Shown: positions 1,560 to 63,611 of the stretch, in pieces
How positions within the stretch are numbered: position 1 is the first letter of the stretch
How the letters are laid out: each line of letters begins with the position of its first letter
Virus record (IMG/VR): IMGVR_UViG_3300005663_000032
Direction: 5' to 3' (one strand)
From: an uncultured virus (IMG/VR IMGVR_UViG_3300005663_000032)
Lineage: Duplodnaviria; Heunggongvirae; Uroviricota; Caudoviricetes
Length of the DNA: 64,000 bases
The notes under the pieces: model-generated
What the model saw: the letters and a program-made list of their open reading frames with translations, nothing else
What the model was told of the DNA's origin: nothing
Database searches by the model: none
Translations under genes and position numbers: made by a program

Positions 1560-1682
1560 CGGGAGCTAGCTCAGTCAGGTAGAGCGCTTATAGTTCTTTT
1601 GAAATTTGATCCCTTACGGGCACACATCAGAATTTGGACATTGAGGATGTAGAGGTCATGGGTTCAAATCCCATTCTCCCGA
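1560..1682 (+). ncRNA. tRNA-mimic RNA 1 (Y-RNA-like; anticodon arm replaced by ~65-nt structured insert)
   Basis: acceptor CGGGAG/CTCCCG, canonical D arm TAGCTCAGTCAGGTAGAGC, T arm ATGGG-TTCAAAT-CCCAT; no canonical anticodon loop; insert carries TTGAT-CCC-TTAC-GGG-CACAC-ATCAG-AATTTGG. Confidence 0.75.
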
Positions 1683-1694
1683 ATATTTCACAAT

Positions 1695-1786
1695 GCTGGA
1701 GAATAATCATTCCTTCTCATTTAGATCCCGCAGGGGCACGATTTGGAATTTGGTACACTTGAAAGGTTCAATCCCTTTCTCCAGCG
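1695..1786 (+). ncRNA. tRNA-mimic RNA 2 (acceptor + T arm, no D arm)
   Basis: GCTGGAG/CTCCAGC 7-bp acceptor, AAAGG-TTCAATC-CCTTT T arm, core TAGAT-CCC-GCAG-GGG-CACG-ATTTG-GAATTTGG. Confidence 0.7.
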
Positions 1787-1798
1787 CTTTTTCACAAT

Positions 1799-1835
1799 GC
1801 TGTAGGATTCAAGACTTCGAACTCTTCCTATGGCA
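1799..1835 (+). ncRNA. minihelix-like RNA 3 (acceptor-like stem + T-loop hairpin)
   Basis: GCTGTAGG/CCTATGGC stem, AAGA-CTTCGAAC-TCTT; preceded by the same TTCACAATGCTG as RNA 2. Confidence 0.5.
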
Positions 1836-1848
1836 CTTTTTTATTTCA

Positions 1849-1934
1849 GCGAAGATGCATTTCATTCCTTTTCATTTAGATCCCGCAAGGGCACGATTTG
1901 GAATTTGGTTACAAAACTATCCCCGCATCTTCGC
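1849..1934 (+). ncRNA. structured RNA 4 (Y-RNA-like)
   Basis: perfect 10-bp terminal stem GCGAAGATGC/GCATCTTCGC enclosing the same core as RNA 2 with a GCAA tetraloop. Confidence 0.7.
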
Positions 1935-1978
1935 ATTATTTCGATCTAATTGATCCCCCTAACAGGTGGCATTAAACT

Positions 1979-3616: not shown

Positions 3617-3698
3617 AATATTTCATAGAACTATTAAAGACTAAAATCTTAAATAATTAATAATATTTCAAACCTGTTAATAATAACAGAAAAACACT

Positions 3699-3736
3699 AG
3701 CTCATCTTCCCCAAATAGGGGAGGGTGGGCTTTTTT
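3699..3736 (+). terminator. GC hairpin + T-tract
   Basis: GCTCATCTTCCCC-AAATA-GGGGAGGGTGGGC-TTTTTT. Confidence 0.65.
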
Positions 3737-3740
3737 CATT

Positions 3741-4085
3741 TTGGTATATTACGAGAACATGCGTTCAGTAAAAAAACTATCCGAACAGATAAATGTTGAT
3801 TACGGTATCAAAACTCAGAAGATTCACGTTTCTGAGGGTGGTGTTGTAACGATTCAGGCTCTCGGCACAACTGTCGATGATATAGAAGTCTGTATGCAGG
3901 TGGATTCCACGACCAAAGGCCTGGATTATTCCATGGTCTTCCGAAAGGATAATCTAAGTCGATTGGAATATCTTGAATTTGATGATATCAACGCAAAGAT
4001 AGTCAGGCGATTTCTAGAAGGAAGTGATGTTGATTTTATGCATTCAATTAATGCACAACAGAATCATACATTTATTCCCGCATAG
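3741..4085 (+). CDS. hypothetical protein
   Basis: 114-aa ORF; start uncertain. Confidence 0.7.
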   Translation: MVYYENMRSVKKLSEQINVDYGIKTQKIHVSEGGVVTIQALGTTVDDIEVCMQVDSTTKGLDYSMVFRKDNLSRLEYLEFDDINAKIVRRFLEGSDVDFMHSINAQQNHTFIPA

Positions 4086-4166
4086 GGGGGATGAATGCTA
4101 TTTCTAATATTTCAAACAAATATCACAACATGCTTTCACTTATAATGCACCGTGTCATAAGCAATT

Positions 4167-4174
4167 TTTTAAAA
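4167..4174 (+). promoter_or_regulatory. archaeal-type TATA box for tnpB
   Basis: TTTTAAAA about 25 nt before the GTG start at 4197 (leaderless geometry). Confidence 0.5.
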
Positions 4175-4196
4175 GATGAATGAATAATTACTCATA

Positions 4197-5564: not shown

Positions 5565-5602
5565 CTCCCGCATAACTCAAAAACTAGGAGAATATTTCTC
5601 GT

Positions 5603-7785: not shown

Positions 7786-7923
7786 ATGGACAAATACGAT
7801 AAATTAAAACAGGCAGACGACACGATCTGCAGGTTGGGTCACATAGTTCATCGAGTTGAAATTAATAAAAGCATTATTTATCAATGCAAATCATGCTACT
7901 CGGAATTCACTCCAAAAATTTAA
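7786..7923 (+). CDS. small Cys/His protein (start corrected)
   Basis: TAATATTTCT-ATG; CRLGH...CKSC. Confidence 0.65.
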   Translation: MDKYDKLKQADDTICRLGHIVHRVEINKSIIYQCKSCYSEFTPKI

Positions 7924-7929
7924 TATTTC

Positions 7930-8391
7930 ATGAAAGACAAAATCACTCGAGATGATATGGAGAATTTCTATCGAAAGATGTGCAATATCCTCAATAACAT
8001 GGAAGGTGAGGATGCACAAGGGATTCAAAACGTTTTAGACGATTTGATATTCAAACCCGGGGAACGGCTTGCCATCGACAAGACAACTAAAGACCAGAAT
8101 GAGAAGACAATGGCCTTCTATAAACGCCTTACTCAACAGGCACATTATGACAAAGGCACTGATTTAATCGCATTGAATGAAAAACTATCTGGACAGAAAG
8201 AACCTTTTTGTGCTTGGCATGAGACAAAAATGGGGAACCCCTATTGTCCAAATTGCGGGGCGGCTGATGAGGTAGAATACATTAAGACCCGTTCGAATAA
8301 ATTAAAATCATATAGATGTAAAGGATGTGACCTCAAATTTCACATTTTCTGGTTTCTTAACTACACATGTGATGAATGTAAAGAAAAATAA
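7930..8391 (+). CDS. zinc-ribbon hypothetical protein
   Basis: CPNC, CKGC, CDEC; motif-bounded. Confidence 0.75.
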   Translation: MKDKITRDDMENFYRKMCNILNNMEGEDAQGIQNVLDDLIFKPGERLAIDKTTKDQNEKTMAFYKRLTQQAHYDKGTDLIALNEKLSGQKEPFCAWHETKMGNPYCPNCGAADEVEYIKTRSNKLKSYRCKGCDLKFHIFWFLNYTCDECKEK

Positions 8392-8525
8392 TATTTCTAT
8401 GAGTGATTTAGAGAATTGGCTTATCGACCAAAACATATTTGTAATAACAATTATTGTTTTGGGATTTGTATTGGGATTAGTTTCATTTATGGTTTTCCTA
8501 ATAGGATTAATGGGATAATATTTCT

Positions 8526-9745: not shown

Positions 9746-10382
9746 TATTTCAATGCCTAAAACCAAATTCACAAAAAAAAAGAATTAGGATTTCTTAGGA
9801 GTTTAAAAATGACAGAGAAAAAAGCCAAGGGCACAATAGTTATAGATTATGATTCTAACATGCTTAATATAAATGCAGTTGAAAGCTGGATTGAAGATCA
9901 GTTACAAAAAATACAAGATACTGGTGGGGGGATTACGGGCTTCAGTATTGAATTAGAGGACTAAAACATGATTGATGTATTGAACACAATCAAACAAAAC
10001 CATGAAAAAACTCATGGTTGTACAGTAATGAAAATTACTTCGAAAAAGGGCATAATCACTAAGATTGTTTGCCTGCGATTTTAAATAAATTAATATTTCA
10101 TGGTTTCTAATATTGAGGAAATAAATCTAAAAAACACTATAACTGCGGCAGTTATTAAATATCTAGAAAATAAGGTGTCAAAAGAACATCAGAACTTCGA
10201 TCACATCGATGATATGGTTGACGATTTATTTGATGAATATTTTACCATGTTTCTAGATGAATTCAATAGTGAAATGAAAACAAGACACTATTAATATTTC
10301 TAACCTATATTCAGGTTATAATGATTTCACCCATAAGTGGGTGGGTCTATCGACTTAAATAAAAATCCAAGGGATTTAAATT

Positions 10383-11534
10383 ATGAGTGATGAACTAAAC
10401 ATACCAATATTAACCGTATTGCGGACAAAAACTGCACTTAAGGTTATTATTAATGACATAGGAAAGGAAGGAACACAAGGTGTCTTCCTATGGGGTCCAC
10501 CTGGGATCGGAAAGAGTGATTTGGTAAAACAAATCGCAGACGAAACAGGGAGCGACTTCAGAGATGTCCGTCTTGGACAATTAGATCCAGTCGATCTGCG
10601 AGGGTTGCCTGTATTTGATCACGAGAACAAAAGATCTGAATGGTATCCTCCATCATTTCTACCGGATACAAATACTAAAGAAAAAGGAATTCTATTCCTT
10701 GACGAAATCAACACAGCTGCCCCTGCAGTACAGGCCGCAGCATATCAACTGATTTTAGATCGAAAAGTTGGTGATTATACCATGCCAGAAAACTGGATAA
10801 TAATTGCAGCTGGAAATAGAAGATCCGATCAGGCAATAGCCTACAAATTACCAAGCCCATTGGCAAACCGATTTACCCATATTGAGGTTACACATAACCC
10901 TGATGAGTGGCGATCATGGGCCTACGCACACAATGTAGATCCATTTATTATTGGTTTTATTCAATTTCAGCCAGATGCATTATTTCGCTTCAGTGGAGCG
11001 ACATCTGAAACCGCATTCCCAACACCAAGATCATGGGCCTTTTCCTCAAACCTACAAGGGTTAAGAGATGAAGATTTGGAACTATACAATTCTCTCTTGG
11101 GGGGAACAGTTGGAAAGGCCGCTGCACAACAATTTATTGCATATCTGACATACAGAGATACAATTCCTAGCCCGGTAGATATTCTCGAAGGCAAGGAATA
11201 TATTCCACCAGAAACACCAGACGCAATGTATGTTCTGATGGCGGCTCTGATGGCCGAGTTAATGCGCTCAACAAAAGCAAAATTTAACGATGCCACAACA
11301 AATTTCATGAAATATGTATCTTCATATGAAAATACACCAAATGCGGACCATGGAATTGTTTTGATCAAAGAATTGATCAGAGCGTCTGGTGCTAAGAAAC
11401 TTCCTGCTAAATCATCAACAAGTCCTACCAAAGGGCGATTGAAAGCAAAAACGGCAGGAAATTATATTAGTCTTGTTGTCCAGAACGATGAATACAGAAA
11501 ATGGCAAAAAAGAAACGGCAAATCTATGAAATGA
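10383..11534 (+). CDS. MoxR-like AAA+ ATPase (dynein-related AAA_5 type)
   Basis: Walker A GPPGIGKS, Walker B LFLDE, AAGNR, PLANRF, PTPRSW. Confidence 0.9.
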   Translation: MSDELNIPILTVLRTKTALKVIINDIGKEGTQGVFLWGPPGIGKSDLVKQIADETGSDFRDVRLGQLDPVDLRGLPVFDHENKRSEWYPPSFLPDTNTKEKGILFLDEINTAAPAVQAAAYQLILDRKVGDYTMPENWIIIAAGNRRSDQAIAYKLPSPLANRFTHIEVTHNPDEWRSWAYAHNVDPFIIGFIQFQPDALFRFSGATSETAFPTPRSWAFSSNLQGLRDEDLELYNSLLGGTVGKAAAQQFIAYLTYRDTIPSPVDILEGKEYIPPETPDAMYVLMAALMAELMRSTKAKFNDATTNFMKYVSSYENTPNADHGIVLIKELIRASGAKKLPAKSSTSPTKGRLKAKTAGNYISLVVQNDEYRKWQKRNGKSMK

Positions 11535-12023: not shown

Positions 12024-12737
12024 ATGAACTGCCCACACTGTAAAGGAGACAATCCAAAAAAAATTAAAACAAAAAGCTACGGGAAATCCCTGTGGTGTAA
12101 AGAAGGCTGTGGAATTGTATGGCCTGAAAATGGTGATCTCAAGGTGTCAACAAAATGTCTTGATAAACATAAAACCCCTGAGATGTGTGAAGTCGTCACT
12201 CTTGATGGGATACAAGTCAACCATTGTTGCGTCTGTGGGATTATATTCTCCCCAGATGAAGAATACAACATCTACAAAAAAATTGAAGAGGAAACTGAAG
12301 CCTGCGATCACCTTCACGGGCACTTAGATGGGACTCGAATACAAACGATTACAGAAGGATTAAGAATCGATTCTATGGTAGATGTAGTTACATTGGATGC
12401 GATATTTACACTTGACAAGGTGCGATACCCTGTTAAAATATTGGCAAGACTGAAACAACACGGTGCATTTCCAAAAGACTTGAGAGAGAAAATCGAGGCC
12501 GAAATCAGTGAAAAAATGGGCGCCGAAGGCAAAATCTTTGGCGGAGCATTTGAAATTGATGCACTTGCAATACTCAACAGTACAATTGTTGAAGATGATG
12601 ACGGCAATCCACATCCAATTATGCAGCAGCTGACCGAGATCGTCCGAAGCGACAATAACACAGAGCAACTGAAAAACTATCTCGAAGCAATATTAGATGC
12701 CCAAGAGGGCGTAAGCGATAACTCCGATTTTGTTTAA
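12024..12737 (+). CDS. Cys-rich hypothetical protein
   Basis: CPHC, CKEGC, CCVC at N-terminus. Confidence 0.75.
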   Translation: MNCPHCKGDNPKKIKTKSYGKSLWCKEGCGIVWPENGDLKVSTKCLDKHKTPEMCEVVTLDGIQVNHCCVCGIIFSPDEEYNIYKKIEEETEACDHLHGHLDGTRIQTITEGLRIDSMVDVVTLDAIFTLDKVRYPVKILARLKQHGAFPKDLREKIEAEISEKMGAEGKIFGGAFEIDALAILNSTIVEDDDGNPHPIMQQLTEIVRSDNNTEQLKNYLEAILDAQEGVSDNSDFV

Positions 12738-12753
12738 TATTTCTAGGTGTAAA

Positions 12754-14958
12754 ATGAACGAAAAAGAAATTTACGCACCGGCAAAGGAGAGAAACAATAG
12801 TATTTGGACCTCTACCCAATTGGCTAGAACCGAATACTTTGGACTCGTGGTATGGGGAGCTGACGGCAGCCACTTCAGCGTGGTATACGACAGCCATTTA
12901 AAAAAACAGATTAGAAAGAACATGGTAAATCCACCATATTTGCTCTCTGTTGCATTATCTGCATCAAAGAACAGATCAATGAGGATTTTACAAAAACATA
13001 GTCTCTTCGAACTGAATGACACACAACCAGACGACATTCTCTACAGATTTGCCTTCATATACGACCTTCTTCAACAACGGCTTGAAGATGACGATCGGGA
13101 TGCACAAAACCTGCTGGCTACATTTAGTCCATCATGTTTTGGACTCGAAGCACTTTATGTGCCTGAAATAAATATTCAGGCAGGAAAAGATGCAATTAAC
13201 GCAATGGATTCAATTCCTGATCTATTGAGCTTTCTGTTCTGGATCGGTGAGAGGATTCCTTTACTTGTATTAATAGACGAAATCTCTTCAAAAGAAGTAG
13301 TTCCCCGCGAGGGAGCTGGTTCAATTGTTGACGATCTCCAGAAACAGTCAATCATCATGTTACGTGAAAAATGTAAGGGAGTGGTATATCCAAGATTCTA
13401 TGCAAATACGAATTCTAGGGTAGAAGTTCCAGTACTGATCCAAGAACCAAATAGTAAATCCAAAGACCCTGTAGTAAAATACTATGCCAAGGAAATAAAA
13501 GGAAATCGTTTGGAAATACTCCGATCAAAAGGATTTCAGACACAATTCGACGCTTTGGAAGCCATCGATGACGCTCACAAATACAGTGCCACCTCAAATG
13601 TAATTATATTTGCGGAAGACAAAGAACAGATCGACGCTGACATTATGAAGAACTCATATTCAGTTGAGATCAACCTGCCCAATGCAGACATCAGAAGAGC
13701 ATTGATCACTAAACTATTCAGTGATTTTAATGCAGATCTAAAGAAAGGTAAAGGAGTAGTTACAGTAATAAAAGTTCGCTACGGAAATCGGGAAGTCCCC
13801 GGTAAAGAGGCAGAACTGGAATTTCTTGTTGCACCACTTGCAGGTACCAACTCAAGAGAAATCAATGAGATTCTCGGTTCAAAAATGAATGCAGGGCAGG
13901 CATACGCTATAGTGGACAAATCGCCCACAGGCTATGTATATCTTGATGACGTTTCTGAATTTAGAAAGAAAATAATCAACGCAAGTCCCGCATTGGAATT
14001 AGTTGAACCTGATCATACATTTGATGACATACAGGGATTAACAGAAGCCAAGGAATATCTTAATAAAATAATCACCGTGGTTGAGACCCCTTATCTACAT
14101 CCAACACTTCCAGGTGGATTCCTATTTAGTGGGCCGCCCGGAACTGGTAAAACTTATACTGCAGAGGCACTGATGAAAGAATTATCCAAGAAAGGATTCA
14201 CAGGAGTTTATCTCCATATTGACAAATTATTGGGTAGTTATGTCGGCCAAACAGAGATGCAAACCAGACAGACCATTGATACACTGCGTGCATTATACAA
14301 GGCAGTTGTATGGATTGATGAATTGGACAGAAAATCTATGAGTACCGAAACAAAAGGTCCAAGTGGCGATTCTGGAACAACAAATCGAATGCAAACTCGT
14401 TTGATGGAATTTTTTGGAGATGGGGCAAACAAAGGAAAAATCATTCTTTGTGCAGCAACCAACTTCCCAGCAAACATTGACACTGCATTGTTTGATAGGT
14501 TTCCGGATCGGATACCATTCTTACCTCCTGATGAACAGGGTAGAGCAGATCAATTCAAACTCAAATTACAGAAGATGAATTCTGATATGGGGGATAGAGT
14601 TACCTTTATCCCTGATTTGGATACAATTGCATTATGGGCTGCCAAAAATGCACCTGATGTGGCTGGACGCCCATTAGAAAACATTGCTAGTAGTATTCTT
14701 CGTGAAGCTGCTGTTAAAAGCAAAGATGGTAAAATCAAAGTTGATAAAATGCTAGTATCATCGATTATAAATGATACAAACGTAGTGATGGGTGATAAAG
14801 CAGATGAAATGATTGAACAAGCAATCAAATTTGTAAACCCTAAATCAGCATTGGATAAAACATTTATGAAACGGTGGAAAAAATCAAAAGCGCAGACCAA
14901 GAAACCTGCTAAACCGCCAACGAAAACATCATCTAAACCCGATGATGATATGTTATAA
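12754..14958 (+). CDS. AAA+ ATPase (Ycf46/CDC48-like C-terminal AAA domain; start corrected)
   Basis: GPPGTGKT, YVGQTE, WIDELD, AATN...IDTALFDRF; AGGTG SD after the motif. Confidence 0.88.
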   Translation: MNEKEIYAPAKERNNSIWTSTQLARTEYFGLVVWGADGSHFSVVYDSHLKKQIRKNMVNPPYLLSVALSASKNRSMRILQKHSLFELNDTQPDDILYRFAFIYDLLQQRLEDDDRDAQNLLATFSPSCFGLEALYVPEINIQAGKDAINAMDSIPDLLSFLFWIGERIPLLVLIDEISSKEVVPREGAGSIVDDLQKQSIIMLREKCKGVVYPRFYANTNSRVEVPVLIQEPNSKSKDPVVKYYAKEIKGNRLEILRSKGFQTQFDALEAIDDAHKYSATSNVIIFAEDKEQIDADIMKNSYSVEINLPNADIRRALITKLFSDFNADLKKGKGVVTVIKVRYGNREVPGKEAELEFLVAPLAGTNSREINEILGSKMNAGQAYAIVDKSPTGYVYLDDVSEFRKKIINASPALELVEPDHTFDDIQGLTEAKEYLNKIITVVETPYLHPTLPGGFLFSGPPGTGKTYTAEALMKELSKKGFTGVYLHIDKLLGSYVGQTEMQTRQTIDTLRALYKAVVWIDELDRKSMSTETKGPSGDSGTTNRMQTRLMEFFGDGANKGKIILCAATNFPANIDTALFDRFPDRIPFLPPDEQGRADQFKLKLQKMNSDMGDRVTFIPDLDTIALWAAKNAPDVAGRPLENIASSILREAAVKSKDGKIKVDKMLVSSIINDTNVVMGDKADEMIEQAIKFVNPKSALDKTFMKRWKKSKAQTKKPAKPPTKTSSKPDDDML

Positions 14959-15428: not shown

Positions 15429-15459
15429 ATCCCGCGGGCAACCAAACTGTAATATTTCT

Positions 15460-15657
15460 ATGGATAAAGACATACCTATTCCTACAAAATCCGAAGACAT
15501 GTCTATACGGGAAGAAATTGTAATTAGATTACAACTAAAGTATACACAGAGTACGAGTAAGAAAAAAGATCACTTATTGATGCAATTACAATCGGCGATC
15601 AATGGGGTTCTTGTAGAAGACTTGTACAAAATTGTCGAAACTTGGCAAATAGACTAA
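15460..15657 (+). CDS. hypothetical protein, paralog of 17034-17231 (start corrected)
   Basis: 65 aa, MDKDIPIPTK...LYKIVETWQID. Confidence 0.8.
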   Translation: MDKDIPIPTKSEDMSIREEIVIRLQLKYTQSTSKKKDHLLMQLQSAINGVLVEDLYKIVETWQID

Positions 15658-15731
15658 TATTTCATGACTAAAATACAATTTTTAGTAAAGAAAATGATTG
15701 TAGACAAAAATAAAAAGCTTTAATATTTCTA

Positions 15732-31768: not shown

Positions 31769-31786
31769 TATTTCTAAGGTGACGAT

Positions 31787-33737: not shown

Positions 33738-33965
33738 ATGGACAACAAAATCCAAACGGTGATCAAATCTCATTTGAAAGCTGTTAAAGACGAACTAATA
33801 AAAGATTTACTTGAATTGCACAAACAAATAACTGCAAAAAATGCACATTCATCAGCAGCCCAAGAATCTTGGACTTGTGGTTGTTATTACGATCCAGAGG
33901 CAAACGTTGATTGTTTGATGCATTTATTATTAGAGCTCTTTGATATCGAATATGACCTGCCATAA
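33738..33965 (+). CDS. hypothetical protein
   Basis: motif-bounded; sits within the HEAT cluster. Confidence 0.7.
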   Translation: MDNKIQTVIKSHLKAVKDELIKDLLELHKQITAKNAHSSAAQESWTCGCYYDPEANVDCLMHLLLELFDIEYDLP

Positions 33966-33983
33966 ATATTTCTAATATTTCCA

Positions 33984-35306
33984 GTGGAAGACGAAGAAAA
34001 AGAAAACGCAGACTGCGTGTTCGCCGCTAAATCACTAAAAGATCTTTTAGTTTTATTTGATAAGGGAGATCATTATCGCAACCTCTGGGAGCCGGTAATT
34101 ATCCGCTTATTGAAATACAAAGACGAAAAGAAACTGAATGATCGATTGGACGAATATCTTTACGAAGCTAGTCCCGACAGAAAAATCTTGAGATTATTAT
34201 CAACTGAGGATCAACTTGCAAAATTTGTTGAGCTGACTTTCAGAGGAGATAATAAATTGGATTTGCAAACCCTTCTTGATCATGAGAAAATTACTGATGA
34301 AATCAAACAGGAAATGTATAAGAGCATCAGAAATGCTCATCAGCGGTACTATATAATCCGCCACATTACGGGTGATACTGATTTTTGGGCCGCTCTAGCA
34401 AGCAATGAAGACGAGAAACAAATCGTCGCATATGCAACAATGCAATTACAAAAATTTGATCCAAACTTCAACAAGATAGATCTTGTTAAACGAAGAATAC
34501 TTGGTATGATGAAGAACGAAGTTTATGGGTCTAGACGCGACCTATTGGAAGAATTACTCGATCAGTTAAAGCATGATAAGGAGTTTATTCACTCTTTGAT
34601 CGACCCCCATGGTGGTTTTCATCACAGTAATCGATCAGAAGTCTATCCGATGATCTCAGATATTACCTATCTAGATAAGATGCTGAGACGCGAGAAAAGC
34701 TATCGAGTTAGAAAAGTTGGACTTAAAAGACTAAAATCTTTGACGACAGGTTCTCATCTTGATTTGATTATTCACATAATCAAGACAGATAGAACACAAG
34801 ACGGCCTTGATCATTTTATCAAACAGTTAGGCATTCTTACTGAATTCTCACCAATTTTGGTGGATAAATTCCTGAATCCAAACACCCCACCAAACGCAGT
34901 AACAGATTTATTTGAAAAATTTAAATATTGTAAACAAAGCGATCCGAAGGAATACCAGCGAATATTGAAGGGGTTTTGTGAGGTCGGAACAGGTCCTGCC
35001 CACCATTCTGCAGCGGCAGAGCTGGATAAAACACCTGCAAACGCCCAATATCTGCTAGAAATGCTTCAAAACGCAATTGAATCCAACCGAAGTGTTCTCA
35101 AAGAGGAACTATTGGAACTATTGGATGATGCCGGAAGACTCAAGATTTTGGAAGATTACGGGGATAACTTATTCAGATATTATTCCAACGACAAACTGAA
35201 GATTATACTCAGAAGATTTACCGACGAGGATCTAAGCAATCTAACAGTATTGTATACAGACTCATCGTTTGGTAAAATTGCACGAGATGTGCTAAGAGAG
35301 CGTTAA
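33984..35306 (+). CDS. alpha-helical (HEAT-like) repeat protein
   Basis: REKSYRVRKVGLKRL. Confidence 0.65.
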   Translation: MEDEEKENADCVFAAKSLKDLLVLFDKGDHYRNLWEPVIIRLLKYKDEKKLNDRLDEYLYEASPDRKILRLLSTEDQLAKFVELTFRGDNKLDLQTLLDHEKITDEIKQEMYKSIRNAHQRYYIIRHITGDTDFWAALASNEDEKQIVAYATMQLQKFDPNFNKIDLVKRRILGMMKNEVYGSRRDLLEELLDQLKHDKEFIHSLIDPHGGFHHSNRSEVYPMISDITYLDKMLRREKSYRVRKVGLKRLKSLTTGSHLDLIIHIIKTDRTQDGLDHFIKQLGILTEFSPILVDKFLNPNTPPNAVTDLFEKFKYCKQSDPKEYQRILKGFCEVGTGPAHHSAAAELDKTPANAQYLLEMLQNAIESNRSVLKEELLELLDDAGRLKILEDYGDNLFRYYSNDKLKIILRRFTDEDLSNLTVLYTDSSFGKIARDVLRER

Positions 35307-39487: not shown

Positions 39488-40784
39488 TATTTCTATGCAC
39501 GAAGCATTAAAAGAACAAATTAGAGTTCTTCAAAATTACATATGGGACAAAGAACGCAATCTGCGCAATCTTGAGCGCGATCTTCGCCTGCAACTCATTG
39601 ATAAACCAGTTGATTTTTTTCAATTAAATGTGAGAATTACTGTCCCGTTAGAATTAAGTTCTAGAAGATTATCTGATGATGAGGATGACTCTCCTGAATC
39701 TGCTTATGACTCAATTATGAGTCAAGTAATTCGCAATATTGAAGAGGGTTATAATGATCCTGAATGTCCAAGCAATGGACAAATGGCAGTAGAATTACTT
39801 GAACAAAAAATCATAAAACTAACACACGAAACGTTTAATGAGTTATGGGGTAAAAATCACTTCAATACAATTCGTAACAAAAAGAGTGTAAAGGAAATGA
39901 TAGAATAATATTTCGATGATCAAGTCACAAATTGAACTTGTTAAACAACTTTGGAATTTAACAGATGATCTAATCGCACAGGATTTGGATGTAAGTCAAA
40001 TATACATTCACTCTCTTGATCAGAAACTTGCCTTCGCAACACTAGAAAAATTCCATAAAACATTGCCAGAGACACTAAAATGTCCTAACTGTGATGAAAC
40101 AAATCCTGCCTCGGCAGTAGAAATTGTGTATCACATTGAAAAATCATCAAGGGGTACTTACACTCACTTAAGGTGCAAATACGATTTTTGCGGAAAAACA
40201 ACCCCCATGGGGGCTGTATTGAGACACAACCAATAATATTTCTATGGACTATCGCGACGAAGATCTAACAGAAGATGAACGTGCCATAATACTAAAGATT
40301 CAAAAATTATGGACTGAAATGGGGATGATCCCCGTATCTGTAAATAATCTCTATGATTTGTTTATTCAGATCAAATCCGAAAACGATCAATGGTATAAAA
40401 TACAAACCCACGATAAAATTGATAGAGAGTGGGAGAAATTAGTACTCGCTGAGTTATCTACCTATACGATACATCGAGGGATCACATTTGCCTCGGCAAT
40501 GAGGTTGTTAATGGAATACAACTTCTTTGTATCTGTCTCATTTCAAGACATGTACGATATGTATAGTGGCAGTGAGGATGAGGATTAATGGTAGAATTTG
40601 AAATTGATTTTACAAAATTAAAAGAAATGTTCGAACATATGAAGCCTAAAAACTGGACAAATGGGAGTTTAATGATTCATACTGATGGGTCATTGACATT
40701 CACATCAATAGATGGGGAACAAGAAATAGAACTCGTCCCAAAAAAACATTAATATTTCTCTCGTAGCAATACGAGTGGTTAATT

Positions 40785-41582
40785 ATGGCATCAACGAAAT
40801 TAACATTACAAATAGGCTTGCTCCCCCTCGCTATAGGGTTGGCAAAGTCTACCAGTACTAAGATTGGATTCAAACAGGGGTTTGAAGGAGTTCCAGTCAA
40901 AACAGTACGAGTCATCAGCAGGGCCGAAAAGCCAAGAACTGTTGAGGAAATTGATCGCATTGTTCAATTCAATGAATTAACGAAACTGTATGACGCAGGA
41001 GACAAATTCATTCCAATTAGCAAAGAGATACTCAAAAAGGCAACACCTGCCTCATCGGATACAATGTCCATTCTAAGGATAATTCCTAGAAAGAACTTGC
41101 CATTGAATATTATTGATGGATCACATTACTTTTTGGAAATTCAGAAAAATAAACAAAAATTGATTCCTGAAGATTCCAAAATAGTATATACTATGTTGTA
41201 TGAATATTTGAAGTCACGCGATTTGATAATGATCACTAACTATTCCACCAGGGGCAGCACAAAAGCTGCAGTCATTTATCCCGCCCCAAAAGGATTAAGA
41301 TTGGCTAATATCGTTCCTGAAAACCTTCAAAGACATCAAGAACAACAGGTTCTTTATGAGGGCGATATTGGTGAAAAACACATTGGGATGTTTGAAAAGA
41401 TGGTCGGTGACAACAACAAAGACGAAATCGACAAAGAAGAATTAATTGATAACTCTTATGCACAAATCAATGATACAATTGAAAAAATACTAGCGGGAGA
41501 GGAAATTCCAGATATGGAAACTCCTGTGGTTACAAAACCCCAAGGTTCATTATTGGACCTGTTAGCCGCAGCCTCAGAATAA
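40785..41582 (+). CDS. ku: Ku-like DNA end-binding protein
   Basis: LQIGLLPLAIGLAKST N-terminal strands, ELTKLYD...FIPI, SHYFL, YTMLYEYL, DNSYAQINDTIEKILAG, SLLDLL: divergent prokaryotic Ku layout. Confidence 0.7.
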   Translation: MASTKLTLQIGLLPLAIGLAKSTSTKIGFKQGFEGVPVKTVRVISRAEKPRTVEEIDRIVQFNELTKLYDAGDKFIPISKEILKKATPASSDTMSILRIIPRKNLPLNIIDGSHYFLEIQKNKQKLIPEDSKIVYTMLYEYLKSRDLIMITNYSTRGSTKAAVIYPAPKGLRLANIVPENLQRHQEQQVLYEGDIGEKHIGMFEKMVGDNNKDEIDKEELIDNSYAQINDTIEKILAGEEIPDMETPVVTKPQGSLLDLLAAASE

Positions 41583-54827: not shown

Positions 54828-54841
54828 AAGAATAATATTTC

Positions 54842-55063
54842 ATGTTTTTCAAAAAAGAAAACATCGATTCTATGTATTCGCTATTAATACTATTTTTGGT
54901 ATTTCTATTAATACTTAGATATTTTGGAATTTTCATGGCTCTCACTACAATTTTAATTTGGGTATGGGTTGGCCTTCTGGTGATTATATTTGCATATGAT
55001 GTCAAAAGCGGACATTTCGCCGAAGAGATTAAGAAGAAAAAAAATAAACAAACACCTCGCTGA
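54842..55063 (+). CDS. membrane protein, paralog of 62534-62782
   Basis: MFFKKENIDS...VKSGHFAE. Confidence 0.8.
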   Translation: MFFKKENIDSMYSLLILFLVFLLILRYFGIFMALTTILIWVWVGLLVIIFAYDVKSGHFAEEIKKKKNKQTPR

Positions 55064-55568: not shown

Positions 55569-55576
55569 TATTTCAC

Positions 55577-56068: not shown

Positions 56069-56077
56069 ATATTTCAC

Positions 56078-56599: not shown

Positions 56600-57329
56600 T
56601 ATTTCTATGACAGATATAGAAGTCTCACGTGATACTATCACAATCGGAGACACAAAATTAGTCATCAACGCACACAAGGAGATAGTGATTAAATTCGATG
56701 ATGAATCAAAAGAATTGTTATCTCGTAACGGTGTGGCCTATCTGGCACAAAAACTAGGTGAATTCCTAGAAACAGGTAATTTTCAAAATTAATATTTCAT
56801 GTCAGAAAACGGCATACTTGCAGCAATGTGTGAGAGACATAATTTATTTTACTCTGCTGATAATGAGGAAATTTGTCCAAAATGTGTTGAAGAGGGCGCA
56901 GTATTGGTAAAATGTATTGAATGTCAATCAACCGATGTATTCAAAATAAATAAAGATAAAAAAGATACTAAGCTTGGTTGCACTGATTGTGGTGCAAGAT
57001 TTGAATTCAAATCAGATTAATATTTCATGAAACCATGTGGTGTATGTGGGGAATCAATAATTGATTTCAACATATCATTAAGGTATCAAACCAAGATTTT
57101 GATAACAGTCTGTTCAATCGACTGTTTTACTGGGCTTGTAAAAGCGGCTGACAAACTGCTTGGAATTAATTTCAAAAAACCAGAATTAGAATGGGGCAAA
57201 ATTGCAGAAATGATCGAAAGGTTCAAGGAAAATTTAGTTGACTTATATTGACTTCTAATTGCGCCCCCTCGATACATTTATATTAATATTTCACATCAAT
57301 TTATATATCAGGACATAAAAAGATATTTC

Positions 57330-57668
57330 ATGTCGGAAGAGACATTTGAGAAACAACTCTGCCAGATGTTAAAAAATCTGGAAGCTTATCGTGTTGATAA
57401 TTTCGCTGGAGAAATGGCTTCATTATCTCACAAAAACGGTCTGGAACTCGATAGAATTATATTCGAGGTAAAAATATTTGACAAAGCCCTTTCAAAATTG
57501 GAGGAAAAGGATGTCAAGAACGTGGTCTCCCACTTGACCAACATAATGTGGAATTTCTATCATTTCGAGAGAAAACGAAGAGAGATTGATGATGTTCCTT
57601 CTCTATGGCGTGTTGCAAACGGTGACATGAATCATCTTCGTGTCTTCCTAAACATGGAGCGCATTTAA
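57330..57668 (+). CDS. hypothetical protein
   Basis: behind a TATA-palindrome-motif promoter unit. Confidence 0.75.
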   Translation: MSEETFEKQLCQMLKNLEAYRVDNFAGEMASLSHKNGLELDRIIFEVKIFDKALSKLEEKDVKNVVSHLTNIMWNFYHFERKRREIDDVPSLWRVANGDMNHLRVFLNMERI

Positions 57669-57680
57669 TATTTCTGCCCA

Positions 57681-60309: not shown

Positions 60310-60858
60310 ATGGAACGACAAGACGTACCATTAGGAACTCATAAAATTGGGAACTTACTTTTCTCTAAAACCTCTCGAATGGAGCTTGGAGATCCCTGTT
60401 ATGAGGGAGACAAAGTTCAAACAAATTTTGTAAGAGGCAACTACCATTGTTTTATTAATGTAGTTGAAATCGATGATTGGGGCAAAAGAGTCCAACGCAT
60501 GTGGGTTGAACACGAAGACCATATTAATAAGCCGAAAAAATGGCATAGCACCGAGACAATGCTTGGGGTTGATGCGGGATTAATGTCAATCAATACTGAT
60601 GGATATCAGACTTATGATACATTTTTACCTAAACTGGAAAAAGCTGAGAAAGAACAAAATCCTTTTGCACAAATCATTGATAAAAGACATTTTGTTTCTT
60701 CGAGTGGATATGGCGATGGGAACTATCCTGTGGCAGTTTCAAGAGAAAATGGTGACATTGGGCTTATAGCTGCCTTGGGAATTGTATTTATTTACAATGA
60801 AACCCACCCTTATTTAACTGAAGAAAAATTTGTTGCCGAACACGAAATGAATGTTTAA
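60310..60858 (+). CDS. DUF4241-like protein
   Basis: GDPCY, GVDAG, SSGYGDGNYPV. Confidence 0.65.
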   Translation: MERQDVPLGTHKIGNLLFSKTSRMELGDPCYEGDKVQTNFVRGNYHCFINVVEIDDWGKRVQRMWVEHEDHINKPKKWHSTETMLGVDAGLMSINTDGYQTYDTFLPKLEKAEKEQNPFAQIIDKRHFVSSSGYGDGNYPVAVSRENGDIGLIAALGIVFIYNETHPYLTEEKFVAEHEMNV

Positions 60859-61362
60859 TATTTCATGACTAAAAAACACAAATGTCCCAAATGTGGTTCT
60901 GATGACATAGTTGCCGCGGGGGCATTGACTGTGAATTTAAAAACAGGAAAAATCCATTCAATACAGACTTTAACACATTTTGAATGTTTAGATTGTAAAT
61001 TCACAGAAGACTGGATTCCACAAGATGGGTCTCCCATATTTTCTGAATTAGAAAAAGAATGGTTGAAATAATATTTCATGTCCGAAGAGAAAAATCTCAA
61101 AGAATTATTGAAAGAGAAACATAATACAGTAGGTCTTTCAGAAGTAATTTGCAGCGGTTGCAAAAAAGTTCTCTTGGCCGATTATGTCATCCCATCAGAT
61201 GTCAGCAAATTAAGCTACCCAATAAACATCGCCTGTGGTGGGTTTATAGCAGACCATTTTCACACAGAAAAAAGATTGCTTATTACTAACGTGGGTCGTT
61301 TTCTATGGTACAAAGATGGAGAAATTTACAAAAACATATGGGATCAACAATAAATATTTCGC

Positions 61363-62223
61363 ATGGCAGGAGGAACCTCAATGCTATGTCATAAAGGTTC
61401 ACCAGATGAATTAAAACCATTTGGCGACGATACTATGGCAGAACAAAAATTTGATGGTGATCGAGTAATTGCAGTTGTCAAAGCTGGCAAAGTTGCATTA
61501 CTTAGTAGAACCAACAACAACATCACTTATCGTTATCCGGAGATAATTGAACAATTAAGGAAGATAAAAAGTGATGTGATACTCGATGGTGAGATGATTG
61601 TCCTGATCAACGGAAGAGACGAATTCAATGAGGGAATTTCCCACAGACGAAGTTTAAAATCTGAAGAGAAGATCAAGGCACGCGTGATCACTCATCCCGC
61701 AACATATATGGCATTTGACATATTAGTAATGAATGGTAATGAAGTAATAACAAAAACGCTGACTGAGCGAAGAAAATTACTTCAGGGGCTATTCGACAAA
61801 GAAAAATATGATGATGTGATTAGAATATCACAACAGTTCACTGACATCCAGAAAGCATGGGATGATGCAGTTAAGAACGATCAAGAAGGAATCATTATAA
61901 AAAATATGTCTAGCCAGTATTCTTATGGACGATCAAGAAATTGGTTGAAAATAAAATACAATAAAGATGCCGATCTGGTATTCGATTCTTATGAAGAGAA
62001 TCCTGCTGGAGGCAAATTGATCAAGACAGTCGCACATGAAGATGATGAGATAGAAATTAATCTTGAGAAAAAACCATTGCATGTACAATGTGCCGGGTTT
62101 AATTGGGCTCCAGTCAAAGCACGATTGGATTCAAATAAATCTGCAAAAATCAAAGTGCAGTATCTTGGTATTACCAAAGACAAAAGATTACGGATGCCAA
62201 CATTCAAAGAGATGTTGGATTAA
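61363..62223 (+). CDS. ATP-dependent DNA ligase (minimal)
   Basis: motif I EQKFDGDR, ILDGEM, AFDIL, EGIIIK, WLKIK, LRMPTF. Confidence 0.92.
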   Translation: MAGGTSMLCHKGSPDELKPFGDDTMAEQKFDGDRVIAVVKAGKVALLSRTNNNITYRYPEIIEQLRKIKSDVILDGEMIVLINGRDEFNEGISHRRSLKSEEKIKARVITHPATYMAFDILVMNGNEVITKTLTERRKLLQGLFDKEKYDDVIRISQQFTDIQKAWDDAVKNDQEGIIIKNMSSQYSYGRSRNWLKIKYNKDADLVFDSYEENPAGGKLIKTVAHEDDEIEINLEKKPLHVQCAGFNWAPVKARLDSNKSAKIKVQYLGITKDKRLRMPTFKEMLD

Positions 62224-62533
62224 TATTTCATGGACAAAGATTATATTTGGACCCCAAAAAGATTTAGGTTATACTCAGCAGTGAAAACTGAACCTGATAG
62301 GTATAGGCTGGTCTTTGGCACAATAAAACCGAAATCAAAACCGCCTCAAGAAATAACTTCAACATTTATACTTAACGAAAAAGAATTTCAAAATTTAAAG
62401 AAAAAAATATTTTGATGGGGGAGTTATTCTAATCTATCTTATAGCCAACTTAATGGGTTTTATGTGGGCACAATTATATTATCTCCCCATATTCAATACG
62501 GAGAAAAAACACATGAGAACAATTTAATATTTC

Positions 62534-62782
62534 ATGTTTTTCAAAAAAGAAAACATTGATTCTATATATACACTATTGATGCTGTTTTTGATACTTCTAA
62601 TACTACTTAGATATGTTAGAATTTTCATGGCTCTCAATACAATTTTAATTTGGGTATGGCTTGGCCTTCTGATGATTCTATCAGCGTATGGTGTCAAAAG
62701 CGGGCATTTCGCCGAAACATTACAGAAATACGAGCAGAAATACGAGACTAAACATGCAATAAAGGAAAAAGGAGATAAGTAA
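62534..62782 (+). CDS. membrane protein, paralog of 54842-55063
   Basis: high nucleotide similarity starting at the motif. Confidence 0.8.
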   Translation: MFFKKENIDSIYTLLMLFLILLILLRYVRIFMALNTILIWVWLGLLMILSAYGVKSGHFAETLQKYEQKYETKHAIKEKGDK

Positions 62783-63157
62783 TATTTCGGTGGCTGAATG
62801 CGAATAAGTAAAGACCTACCAAATCCAGATCATTTTGAAAAATGCCAAAGTTGTTTGAAATCCTATGATGCAATGACAAAAGTAGACATAGGGAAAACAC
62901 GCCCTTGGAGTTTTTATTTATGTTCTGACTGTAAAGATGAATTAAAAGAAAAATTATAATATTTCATGGCATTTACTAACAGATACCTAAAATCATTTCA
63001 TTGGTTCTCACTAGGCATGGTGGTGGGTTGGGGAGTGAGTCGTCGCGCTGAAATTGAAAACTGGAATCAAGATTACATCTGGCTTATACTAATTCTAATC
63101 CCATTTTTAATGATAGGATTGGATTCTCTGCTTCCAGAGAAAAAAGATTAATATTTC

Positions 63158-63340
63158 ATGGACAAAGTTCATCGAGGCGATATTATGAATGATATATCTG
63201 ATAGCCTCACAGTGGAATTAAAACCTCACGAAAAATCAGTTCATTGCAATGAAAACTGTGTTACGAATGAGAAATTCGCCAATGCAATGGATAACATTTG
63301 GAGTGCAATTAAAGGCTACTTCAAAGAACAAATTGCCTAA
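63158..63340 (+). CDS. hypothetical protein, paralog of 46165-46350
   Basis: MDKVHRGDIMNDISDSL. Confidence 0.8.
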   Translation: MDKVHRGDIMNDISDSLTVELKPHEKSVHCNENCVTNEKFANAMDNIWSAIKGYFKEQIA

Positions 63341-63611
63341 TATTTCATGAGTATTTGTGATACCGAATACGAAACAACAAACGCAAAAGGCGATTATATT
63401 GTGGGTGTCAAATGTCCGAAAGAACACGATGACCACTGTGCGAACCACTGCCCATTGGAGGAAGATTCTAAACAACTCGAGGATACCTATGATGTTGCAG
63501 ACGCAGATGAGAATGAATGCTCACTAGAGGCCACTTTTACTTGTATTTACTGTGGAAAAGTAAATCATACCAAAACAATTTATTATGCTAAAGTGGACGA
63601 ATAATATTTCT

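What the first reader, a model, noticed from the sequence alone, without database searches (positions are those of the whole stretch)
1682..63610. Genome punctuated by ~130 copies of (T)AATATTTC joining stop codon to start codon: a gene-unit delimiting system
Seen: almost every gene junction reads TAA-TATTTC-(0-3 nt)-ATG (e.g. 7921 TAATATTTCATG, 8389 TAATATTTCTATG, 17024 TAATATTTCGATG, 55566 TAATATTTCACATG). My manual count is about 130, where only a handful would be expected by chance at this composition. The motif is strand-specific and nearly absent inside long ORFs. It is not an SD: there is no purine core or spacing, and it also precedes non-coding units (1682 before RNA 2, 3661) and genes with their own AGGTG SD (12735, 29259, 23037). 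Inference, three models: (a) a minimal initiator/promoter read by element-modified transcription machinery, giving one leaderless mRNA per gene (analogous to the poxvirus late TAAATG); (b) an endoribonuclease site that cuts a long polycistron into leaderless monocistronic mRNAs; (c) a crossover site of an integron-like gene-cassette array. I do not recognise a described system with this motif.
Basis: partly seen in the sequence, partly recalled or inferred. Interest (0 to 1): 0.95.

Follow-up and report, generated by a model that had tools for sequence, protein, structure and literature searches.

The report
Invariant 9-base gene-start signal
An uncultivated, probably archaeal virus-like element puts the same nine letters, TAATATTTC, directly in front of the start codon of about two thirds of its roughly 150 small genes, most likely so that each message begins at its own start codon, an arrangement I could not find described.

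Summary
AATATTTC occurs 135 times on the + strand and 4 times on the - strand. TAATATTTC occurs 104 vs 1, against 2.7 expected. In 105 of 135 copies a start codon follows within 0-2 nt. In 73 copies the TAA is the in-frame stop of the previous gene. Nothing else is conserved from -40 to -4, and one-mismatch variants are rare.

The motif and Shine-Dalgarno (SD) sequences exclude each other: SD-like words precede 6 of 107 motif-led genes and 28 of 48 others. Where the motif lies 10-90 nt upstream of a gene, the leader mostly carries an SD and often begins with a hairpin. It also precedes non-coding RNAs.

So it marks RNA 5' ends, giving leaderless mRNAs. I favour a minimal promoter/initiator read by element-specific machinery (0.45). 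Rivals are an RNA-processing site (0.22) and a translation re-initiation signal (0.13). Gene duplications and strain breakpoints cluster at it, so it probably also acts as a cassette joint.

The window is part of a 131-kb metagenome contig made almost wholly of ORFans. Its MoxR and TnpB genes are closest to archaeal (Asgard MAG) proteins. The same system was found on only one other contig. No RNA data exist.

The parts
1682..63610 (+). Array of 135 exact AATATTTC copies (104 as TAATATTTC), about one per gene. It continues for 9 more copies to the contig end beyond the window.
7921..7932 (+). Type junction TAA-TATTTC-ATG. The TAA is the in-frame stop of gene 7786-7923 and the ATG starts gene 7930-8391. 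Spacing 0 is seen in 66 copies.
8389..8401 (+). Junction with a 1-nt spacer (TAATATTTC-T-ATG). Spacing 1 is seen in 27 copies.
12735..12756 (+). Motif followed by a 10-nt leader carrying GGTG (an SD) and then the ATG of the 734-aa AAA ATPase. This is the leadered class.
31766..31789 (+). Motif, then taaGGTGAcgat, then the GTG start of a 647-aa ORFan. Leadered class with a GGTGA SD.
40750..40787 (+). Motif, then a 5' hairpin (CUCGUA-GCAA-UACGAG) starting 2 nt after it, then GGT and the ATG of the Ku-like gene.
10292..10385 (+). Motif, then an 82-nt structured leader whose first hairpin starts at its first base, then the MoxR ATPase gene.
3661..3745 (+). Motif followed by a stand-alone small RNA unit: a 5' hairpin, then a 14-bp G+C-rich hairpin, then T6. 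No ORF.
   Evidence: z = -6.3
1560..1689 (+). tRNA-like RNA with an insert of about 49 nt. Its discriminator A is the first base of the motif copy at 1682, and that copy is followed by a second structured RNA.
33965..33986 (+). Tandem double motif AATATTTCTAATATTTC, then CA and a GTG start.
15450..15681 (+). Duplicated gene unit (72% identical to 17024-17256). The similarity starts exactly at the T of TAATATTTC in both copies.
54833..55035 (+). Duplicated gene unit (88% identical to 62525-62727). It starts exactly at the T of TAATATTTC in both copies.
57322..57332 (+). One of the few working variants, GATATTTC-ATG. The others are ACTATTTC at 25248 and AAAATTTC at 47375.
335..1449 (+). Contrast module at the window start. 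Two genes have no motif; each lies behind a repeated stretch of about 60 nt that ends in GCAGGAGAAACAAA plus the start codon (an SD).

Best explanation
(WW)TAATATTTC is the gene-start signal of one large expression class of an uncultivated, probably archaeal, virus-like element.

It fixes the 5' end of an RNA at its own 3' edge. In about 105 genes the message therefore begins on, or 1-2 nt before, its AUG and is translated as a leaderless mRNA. Where a longer leader follows, that leader usually brings its own Shine-Dalgarno sequence and often a protective 5' hairpin.

The most likely way the end is made is transcription initiation. The 9-11 bp would be a minimal promoter/initiator occupying about -9 to -1, with initiation at the first purine after a pyrimidine (C|A in 85 of 135 copies). 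The host's standard promoter recognition is unlikely to be involved.

There is no room for terminators at the junctions, so transcripts would run on into downstream genes, and only the 5'-proximal gene (plus SD-led genes) would be translated from each. Because the signal contains TAA, upstream genes have come to end in it, which packs the array to 94% coding. Because every gene carries the same 9-mer at its 5' edge, the signal also serves as a seamless joint for duplicating and exchanging gene units.

Shown: the counts, the geometry, the exclusivity with SD, the invariance, and conservation on a diverged relative. Inferred: that RNA ends lie at the motif, that they arise by initiation, and who reads the motif.
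For: (1) Strand bias, abundance and position. 135 copies on + against 4 on -; 105 of 135 lie 0-2 nt before a start codon.

(2) It replaces the SD. SD-like 4-mers occur at -18..-4 in 6 of 107 motif-led genes and in 28 of 48 others; random positions give 16%. Starts behind the motif are ATG in 103 of 107, as leaderless initiation requires (established knowledge). The number of copies falls steeply with spacer length: 66, 27, 12, 3, 3 for 0-4 nt.

(3) It is not tied to translation. It precedes SD-containing leaders at 12736, 23038, 29259, 31767, 57667 and 62781, structured leaders at 10293, 23431 and 40751, and non-coding RNAs at 1682 and 3662.

(4) 5' hairpins. In 4 of 7 long leaders folded, a hairpin starts 0-4 nt after the motif.

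(5) Independent units. A stand-alone unit of motif, small RNA and strong hairpin+T6 lies at 3662-3737. A second hairpin+T site at 4069-4097 is followed directly by a motif copy at 4106. This argues for re-initiation after termination.

(6) Invariance, as for protein-read viral promoters. 135 exact copies against 49 one-mismatch words on +, of which 5 precede an ATG. In passages of PMC5312081 that I read, the virion RNA polymerase of AR9 fails on a promoter with one change.

(7) No host-type promoter goes with it. No position from -40 to -4 exceeds 0.09 bits. Sigma-70-like sites are at shuffle level: 86 against 82, 83 against 86, 103 against 92.

(8) Class specificity. The first 1.45 kb of the window uses another repeat with an SD and has no motif.

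(9) Conservation. On contig L024 a homologue of gene 62966-63151 at 47-57% amino-acid identity keeps the exact motif, and all 6 exact copies there precede an ATG within 0-3 nt.
Against: No RNA data exist, so no 5' end has been seen.

No RNA polymerase, sigma, TBP/TFB-like factor or other reader was found in the 69 kb I could read. The other 62 kb of the contig could not be fetched.

A promoter wholly inside -11..-1 fits none of the cellular polymerases. A -10 box needs 5-8 nt to the start site and an archaeal TATA box about 26.

Near-motif words are depleted on the sense strand only (39 against 64.8) and not on the antisense strand (97 against 97). That fits an RNA-level signal somewhat better than a DNA-level promoter, although the effect ranks only 6th of 201 controls.

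The TAA of the motif is in frame with the upstream gene in 73 of 104 TAATATTTC copies, against about a third by chance. This could reflect coupling to termination and not only compaction.

Only 4 of 7 long leaders start with a hairpin.
Confidence: 0.45

Rival explanations
1. RNA-processing site. The array is transcribed as long precursors from a few ordinary promoters. One candidate is the TTTATATA box at 1524-1531, about 32 nt before the tRNA-like gene. A sequence-specific endoribonuclease then cuts between the UAA and the AUG of every junction. Each upstream message keeps its stop codon and each downstream message becomes leaderless.
For: It uses the same geometry as the best explanation.

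The motif holds the stop codon on its 5' side in 73 + 11 copies, so a cut inside TATTTC would leave both neighbours intact.

Avoidance of near-motif words is seen only on the sense strand.

There are no terminators at the junctions.

A canonical TATA-like box heads the array.

MazF-type nucleases that recognise up to 7 nt, and T4 RegB, which cuts at translation starts, are precedents. Both are recalled from memory, not from a call.
Against: A motif copy follows each of the two convincing + strand terminator-like hairpins. A pure processing signal would have little precursor to work on there.

87 runs of T5 or longer lie on the + strand, many inside genes and up to T8. If the host is archaeal, these should stop a host polymerase long before 60 kb; that is my inference from established archaeal termination.

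No nuclease gene was recognised.

I know of no case of activating, gene-by-gene cleavage in a virus of prokaryotes.
Confidence: 0.22
2. Translation signal on polycistronic RNA. The motif is an SD substitute. It would either capture ribosomes that terminate at its UAA and restart them at the AUG 6-8 nt on, or fill the mRNA exit channel of an archaeal ribosome of the eukaryote-like type.
For: It is exclusive with SD.

The in-frame TAA is enriched, 73 of 104.

The distance to the AUG is tight.

In passages of PMC11698992 that I read, ribosomes of TACK and Asgard archaea carry eS26 in the exit channel, where it is incompatible with an SD duplex; in eukaryotes eS26 reads Kozak and TISU contexts.
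Against: At least 11 copies stand 10-90 nt before SD-led starts or before non-coding RNAs. No ribosome contact with the AUG is possible there.

42 copies lie 4 nt or more past any upstream stop, so no terminating ribosome arrives at them.

Base-pairing or contact signals are normally degenerate, whereas this one is invariant.

The spacer varies by 0-2 nt, which would shift any fixed protein contact.
Confidence: 0.13
3. Binding site of a global regulator (stoperator-like). A DNA-binding protein of the element sits at every junction, in one orientation, to silence or time transcription. In this reading the motif touches stop and start codons only because no other non-coding space exists.
For: It is asymmetric, invariant and co-oriented with transcription, and it lies in the only non-coding letters of a 94%-coding array. 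The stoperators of cluster A mycobacteriophages have this logic (recalled from memory).
Against: It does not explain why motif-led genes lack an SD and start with ATG in 103 of 107. It also does not explain the steep fall of copies with spacer length, the 5' hairpins directly behind the motif, or the stand-alone small-RNA unit.
Confidence: 0.07
4. Recombination site of a gene-cassette array (integron-like or micro-homology joint) as the primary function.
For: In 2 of 4 intra-window gene duplications the similarity starts exactly at the T of the motif, and in 3 of 4 within 6 nt of it.

Of the 12 distinct loose-end places among the 24 rows shown (197 further rows were not shown), 5 lie within 12 nt of a motif copy. 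By my arithmetic such zones cover about 9% of the 20 kb (56 copies x 32 nt).

One X4 contig switches sequence inside the copy at 46156.
Against: Nine base pairs with no flanking structure are unlike any known site-specific recombination site.

No integrase or recombinase was seen; the only transposon gene is one TnpB.

Breakpoints at gene borders are also what selection on intact genes produces.

Recombination does not explain the SD exclusivity or the copies before leaders and RNAs.

Only 6 two-member paralogue families exist among the 156 ORFs.
Confidence: 0.05

Closest known systems
Poxvirus late promoters (TAAATG initiator) and baculovirus late TAAG initiators (recalled from memory, not from a call)
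   Same: A very short, near-invariant initiator stands at each gene. It is read by virus-specific machinery, needs no distal element, and in poxviruses overlaps the ATG. There is no defined terminator, so transcripts run on.
   Different: Those are viruses of eukaryotes with their own known polymerases and capped or poly(A)-headed leaders. Here the sequence is different. The host is prokaryotic, as SD-led genes sit in the same array. No polymerase has been seen, and the previous gene's stop codon is built into the signal.
Promoters of the virus-encoded RNA polymerases of phiKZ-like jumbo phages (AR9 early AAATATATATTAT-N6-G, late AACA-N6-TA/G; phiKZ late TATG); passages read in PMC5312081
   Same: They are short, AT-rich and highly conserved, lie within about 11-20 nt of the start site, tolerate almost no change, and are independent of host sigma factors. 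There are tens to more than 100 copies per genome.
   Different: In AR9, 159 start sites serve 134 of 293 genes and most messages have leaders with an SD. Here there is one copy per gene at 0-2 nt from the ATG. No split beta/beta' genes were found in the 69 kb read.
PeSL cassettes (promoter-early stem-loops) of T4-type phages, Arbiol et al. 2010, PMC2839356 (abstract read)
   Same: A repeated regulatory element lies between small non-essential ORFan genes in a hyperplastic region, and recombination between copies shuffles genes. The duplications and strain breakpoints at the motif here match this.
   Different: PeSLs are sigma-70-like promoters plus terminator stem-loops tens of bases long in real intergenic spacers. 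Here there are 9 bases, no stem-loop and no spacer. Sigma-70-like sites are at chance level.
Promoter boxes fused to start codons in uncultivated phages (earlier notes of this scan) and leaderless middle/late genes of Thermus phages (named in those notes; not checked by me)
   Same: A phage-specific one-piece box placed so that the message starts on the ATG.
   Different: In those notes the box ends 4-16 nt before the ATG, the room a -10-type element needs. Copies number ten to about a hundred and are degenerate. Here the box ends 0-2 nt before the ATG and is invariant.
Intergenic repeats carrying promoters in halovirus HF2, PMC8707807 (search listing and start of abstract only)
   Same: It is an archaeal virus with repeated AT-rich intergenic promoter elements.
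   Different: The HF2 repeats are 29 and 58 bp long and there are only a few of them. They are not fused to stop and start codons.

Membership tests
Shine-Dalgarno ribosome-binding site | Purine-rich complement of the 16S rRNA 3' end, 5-10 nt before the start codon | tested here: not met
   The motif has no G. It ends 0-2 nt before the start in 105 of 135 copies. It is exclusive with SD-like words, 6 of 107 against 28 of 48.
Bacterial sigma-70-type promoter (including -10-only leaderless phage promoters) | A -10 hexamer ending 5-8 nt before the start site, with or without a -35 or extended -10 element | tested here: not met
   TAATAT would end only 3-5 nt before the A of ATG. There is no conservation from -40 to -4. 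Sigma-70-like sites are at shuffle level.
Archaeal BRE/TATA promoter | A TATA box centred about 26 nt, and BRE about 33 nt, before the start site | tested here: not met
   No position from -40 to -4 relative to the motif exceeds 0.09 bits. One such box stands before the tRNA-like gene only.
Virus-specific initiator-type promoter (poxvirus late, baculovirus late, phiKZ/AR9 non-virion polymerase) | A short conserved element directly at the start site of most genes of one class | tested here: met
   135 + 9 copies, at 107 of 156 called genes, and absent from the first module of the window. Whether the RNA starts there was not testable.
Virus-specific initiator-type promoter (poxvirus late, baculovirus late, phiKZ/AR9 non-virion polymerase) | A virus-encoded RNA polymerase or dedicated initiation factor that reads it | tested here: inconclusive
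   None was recognised in 69 kb by Pfam, PHROGs or a DxDGD motif scan.
Virus-specific initiator-type promoter (poxvirus late, baculovirus late, phiKZ/AR9 non-virion polymerase) | Primary (triphosphate) 5' ends at the element | not testable with these tools
   No RNA run holds the DNA.
PeSL regulatory cassettes | A strong sigma-70-like early promoter joined to a terminator stem-loop | tested here: not met
   There is no stem-loop at the junctions, and only 2 convincing + strand terminator-like sites in the 60 kb scanned.
PeSL regulatory cassettes | Recombination between copies shuffles the genes between them | tested here: inconclusive
   2 of 4 duplications start exactly at the motif. 5 of 12 displayed breakpoints lie within 12 nt of a copy (the tool's selection of rows).
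Integron cassette array (attC sites) | Imperfect inverted repeats of 57-141 bp at cassette ends, and a tyrosine integrase with attI and Pc | tested here: not met
   The signal is 9 bp with no flanking conservation. No integrase was found among the ORFs scanned against Pfam and PHROGs.

The most novel reading that the evidence does not exclude
A large virus or virus-like element of Asgard-type archaea expresses its genes one by one from an invariant 9-base initiator that contains the previous gene's stop codon and abuts the next gene's start codon. That is a stop/start 'gene junction' logic otherwise known from viruses of eukaryotes (poxvirus late genes; the gene-end/gene-start signals of negative-strand RNA viruses). 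It would imply an element-encoded RNA polymerase or initiator-binding factor of a kind not known in any archaeal virus. The same 9-mer would double as the joint at which gene cassettes are exchanged.
Probability: 0.3. Interest if true: 0.9.

Novelty: new variant of a known kind. Interest (0 to 1): 0.8.

Why it matters
If the motif is a per-gene initiator, this would be the first prokaryotic, and apparently archaeal, virus-like element known to me that builds a separate leaderless message for almost every gene from a signal of only 9-11 bp. That points to an unknown polymerase or initiation factor.

It would also give a clean natural system, more than 140 identical sites, for asking how leaderless and SD-led translation are divided in archaea close to eukaryotes.

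If it is a cleavage site instead, it would be a new way of making monocistronic messages in prokaryotes, with a very specific RNA nuclease as a by-product.

In practice, the motif marks true start codons of about 105 ORFan genes that gene callers relying on SD would mis-start. It is also a search handle for this otherwise unrecognisable lineage.

Tried and rejected
Search for relatives that use the motif.
- Pattern TAATATTTCATG-N(172-202)-TAATATTTCATG in IMG/VR gave 0 hits.
Only the window's own contig (L016, L071, L072) and L024 show the system. All other loci are chance matches or unrelated tandem repeats.
No locus holds more than 3 motif+ATG copies.

Protein-based search for relatives in IMG/VR.
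- Two large ORFans gave nothing.
- A MoxR alignment gave 80 loci at 35-47% identity, none closer than ordinary phage MoxR. None has an 8-mer abutting ATGs, apart from a 69-bp tandem array in L315 and L318.
- GenBank phages have no DNA match to 20 kb of the window. The best MoxR hit there is 39% identity, in Bacillus phage G.

Whole genome and the rest of the contig. No genome is held for the window and the record is not held for the handle. I found no Asgard genome handle to search around.

RNA evidence. No RNA holder was listed among the 4 runs found. The laid runs are contigs, so no RNA ends could be seen.

Search for a reader. There is no DxDGD-type polymerase motif in any called ORF. The four large ORFans at 29267-36781 look like helical repeat proteins from their sequences and a weak HEAT hit.

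A guide RNA complementary to the motif. GAAATATT occurs 4 times on +, none in an RNA-like region. The 7-mer GAAATAT occurs twice in tandem before the tRNA-like gene. I rate that a curiosity.

Oligo-T avoidance as a test for an archaeal polymerase. There are 87 T5+ runs against about 110 in first-order Markov simulations. The depletion is too weak to use.

Literature. Four searches for the motif or for such an architecture in phages, archaeal or Asgard viruses found no description of it. One further search failed on a term-length error and was reworded. The library lacks most subscription journals, so this is not proof that nothing is in print.

Full report
**Observation**

The window is 35% G+C with a steady positive GC and AT skew. 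My ORF model has 156 + strand ORFs covering 94% of the window. TAATATTTC occurs 104 times on + and once on -. Dinucleotide shuffles give 2.7 on average and at most 9. The core AATATTTC occurs 135 times on + and 4 times on -.

The array begins at 1682. The first 1.45 kb of the window has no copy and uses a different repeated stretch that ends in an SD. The window is positions 62001-126000 of the 130,905-bp metagenome contig LAZR01000084.1. The array runs on to the contig end, with 9 more copies in 4.9 kb.

**Anatomy**

- Downstream side. A start codon of an ORF of 25 aa or more follows at 0 nt in 66 copies, 1 nt in 27, 2 nt in 12, 3-4 nt in 6 and 5-12 nt in 8. Sixteen copies have none.
- Upstream side. 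The TAA of the motif is the in-frame stop of the previous gene in 73 copies. A TAA ending on the motif's first A is the stop in 11 more.
- The T at -1. It is not just a stop-codon by-product: it is T in 20 of 27 copies lying 4-40 nt past the previous stop. Positions -2 and -3 are A or T in 116 and 113 of 135 copies.
- Further upstream. No position from -40 to -4 carries more than 0.09 bits, so no -35/-10 pair and no archaeal BRE/TATA goes with the motif.
- Invariance. Only 49 one-mismatch words lie on the + strand (141 on -), and 5 of them precede an ATG.

**What the motif does not do**

It is not a Shine-Dalgarno sequence; it is used instead of one. SD-like 4-mers lie at -18..-4 in 6 of 107 motif-led genes and in 28 of 48 other genes, against 16% at random positions. 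Motif-led starts are ATG in 103 of 107.

It is also not bound to translation.
- In several copies the motif is followed by a leader of 10-20 nt that carries GGTG, GGTGA or AGGT before the start: 12736, 23038, 29259, 31767, 57667 and 62781.
- In three copies it is followed by longer structured leaders (10293, 23431, 40751).
- In two copies it is followed by non-coding RNA. One is the copy at 1682, between a tRNA-like RNA and a second structured RNA. The other is the copy at 3662, before a small RNA that ends in a 14-bp hairpin plus T6 (z = -6.3).
- In 4 of the 7 long leaders I folded, a hairpin begins 0-4 nt after the motif. This is what one expects at a protected RNA 5' end.

**Reading**

The complementary use of motif and SD, the near-exclusive ATG, the steep fall of copies with spacer length, and the leaders that bring their own SD all say the same thing. 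The motif marks the 5' end of an RNA, and the roughly 105 genes that abut it are translated as leaderless messages. This step is inferred; no RNA run holds the DNA.

**How the end is made**

I favour initiation (0.45).
- The signal is invariant in the way protein-read viral promoters are. Passages of PMC5312081 report that one change abolishes an AR9 virion-polymerase promoter.
- It is class-specific, being absent from the neighbouring module.
- It forms a stand-alone motif / small RNA / terminator unit.
- It follows directly on both convincing + strand terminator-like hairpins (3699-3731 and 4069-4097).
- The base after the motif gives a pyrimidine-purine step, C|A, in 85 of 135 copies.

Its geometry, wholly within about -11..-1, fits no cellular promoter type. 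Sigma-70-like sites are at chance level. None was seen in the 69 kb available, and the other 62 kb could not be fetched.

**Rivals**

- RNA processing (0.22) explains the same geometry. It is favoured by the stop codon on the 5' side of the motif and by sense-only avoidance of near-motif words: 39 against 64.8 +/- 7.0 on the sense strand and 97 against 97 on the antisense strand. That effect ranks 6th lowest of 201 composition-matched words. Against it stand the motif copies behind terminators and the 87 T5+ runs on the + strand. These runs should stop an archaeal polymerase well before 60 kb.
- A translation or re-initiation signal (0.13) fits the enriched in-frame TAA (73 of 104) and the tight spacing. 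It does not fit the copies before leaders and RNAs, nor the 42 copies with no stop within 3 nt.
- A regulator-binding, stoperator-like site (0.07) does not explain the SD exclusivity.
- A recombination site as the primary function (0.05) does not explain it either.

**Cassette behaviour**

Of 4 duplicated gene units inside the window, 2 start exactly at the T of TAATATTTC in both copies and a third starts within 6 nt.

Contigs of four DNA runs from two studies were laid on 44001-64000. Among the runs that hold most of the stretch, 62-66% of the laid contigs run on into unlike sequence (99% in X4). Of the 12 distinct loose-end places shown, 5 lie within 12 nt of a motif copy, while such zones cover about 9% of the stretch by my arithmetic. 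The tool chose the rows and 197 more were not shown. So the motif probably also acts as a micro-homology joint, as PeSL elements do in T4-type phages (PMC2839356, abstract).

**What the element is**

Nearly all ORFs have no Pfam or PHROG family. Of the 131 further ORFs sent to Pfam, 122 matched nothing at E <= 0.001. Of the 84 further ORFs sent to PHROGs, 81 matched nothing at E <= 0.0001.

The recognisable genes are:
- a TnpB (4197-5564);
- a DUF2201 metallopeptidase/vWA protein and a MoxR ATPase (6148-7437 and 10383-11534);
- an AAA ATPase (12754-14958);
- a kinase-like P-loop protein (11554-12009);
- a Ku-like protein (40785-41582);
- a WGR protein (57696-58175);
- an ATP-dependent ligase (61363-62223).

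The closest named MoxR relatives, at 48-56% identity, come from Heimdall-, Kari-, Prometh-, Hod- and Lokiarchaeota MAGs. The closest named TnpB relatives, at 50-57% identity, are almost all archaeal. The tRNA-like gene has an insert of about 49 nt. Several SDs read GGTGA, which I recall as the usual archaeal form.

An archaeal, possibly Asgard-associated, virus or virus-like element is therefore my best guess. No capsid or packaging gene was seen, and MAG labels can be binning errors.

**Distribution**

The same system appears on one other contig of the same assembly, L024. It has 6 exact copies, all before an ATG within 0-3 nt, and a homologue of gene 62966-63151 at 47-57% identity. Four literature searches found no description.

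Earlier notes of this scan describe phage promoter boxes fused to start codons on other DNA. Those boxes end 4-16 nt before the ATG. They are not this arrangement.

**Verdict**

It is a new variant of the virus-specific per-gene promoter/initiator kind, with the mechanism unproven. It is a strong candidate for 5'-end mapping.

Noticed in passing
window 1560-1950 and 1979-3616: A Ro60/TROVE-like protein lies next to three structured RNAs. The 545-aa protein has no Pfam hit, but its Atlas feature score is 0.96 to TROVE clusters and its structure TM-score is 0.52-0.63 to TROVE / Ro60 vWA models. It carries a DxSxS motif.

The RNAs are a tRNA-like RNA with an insert of about 49 nt (Rfam tRNA, 39.5 bits) and two more RNAs closed by 9-10-bp terminal stems. 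All three share the element TTWGATCCC-N4-GGGCAC...GAATTTGG. This looks like a Ro60 / Y-RNA-like module in an archaeal-type element.
   Followed up: partly
window 3670-3737: A small RNA unit with no ORF: a 5' hairpin, then a 14-bp G+C-rich hairpin followed by T6. Folding z-score is -6.3.
   Followed up: partly
window 4069-5598: The TnpB gene (IS605 OrfB family, closest to archaeal TnpBs) is flanked by motif copies at 4106 and 5591. Both ends share the word TCCCGCATA. A hairpin at 4069-4097 precedes the left copy.

The element may use the motif's 3' part as its insertion target. If its right end is at 5590, the guide of its RNA would begin with the motif. This was not tested.
   Followed up: no
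window 1537-1551: Two tandem copies of GAAATAT, the complement of the motif core, lie in the ATAGAAAT x3 repeat between a TTTATATA box and the tRNA-like gene. They are the only tandem pair among the 18 + strand copies of that 7-mer, and 2 of only 3 that lie outside called ORFs.
   Followed up: no
window 44144-44178 and 62834-62870: Two islands of about 35 nt, each 36-76 nt inside a small gene, are shared with many other contigs in all four DNA runs. Depth in the bin holding the second island (62677-63343) is 288 in X1 and 88 in X4, several-fold above its neighbours. They may be a short conserved N-terminal module or a small repeat spread through the community.
   Followed up: no
window 283-333 and 568-627: A second kind of repeated stretch (80% identical over 60 nt), ending in GCAGGAGAAACAAA plus the start codon. 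It is used by the two genes before the motif array starts.
   Followed up: no
window 40785-41582, 57696-58175, 61363-62223: Ku-like, WGR-domain and ATP-dependent DNA ligase genes, which together look like an end-joining set. One distant ligase relative (P0243) is fused to a WGR domain.
   Followed up: no
window 49713-49790: A leader rich in repeated GAAACAA words (CTGAAACAAATGAAACAAAAACTGAAACAAGTGAAACAAAAA) lies between the motif copy at 49705 and gene 49796-50200. That gene has neither an SD nor an adjacent motif.
   Followed up: no
window 14970-15008, 15656-15680, 45447-45460, 51830-51840: Motif+ATG followed by mini-ORFs of 2-7 codons. At 14970 the mini-ORF is followed by an SD-led gene (15009). 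These could be decayed genes or leader peptides.
   Followed up: no
L315 1-1500 and L318 100-900 (IMG/VR contigs): Arrays of a 69-bp repeat, each unit ending in TGGTATTTAA plus ATG or ATA, lie near a MoxR gene. They are unrelated to the finding and look like an iteron- or CRISPR-like array.
   Followed up: no
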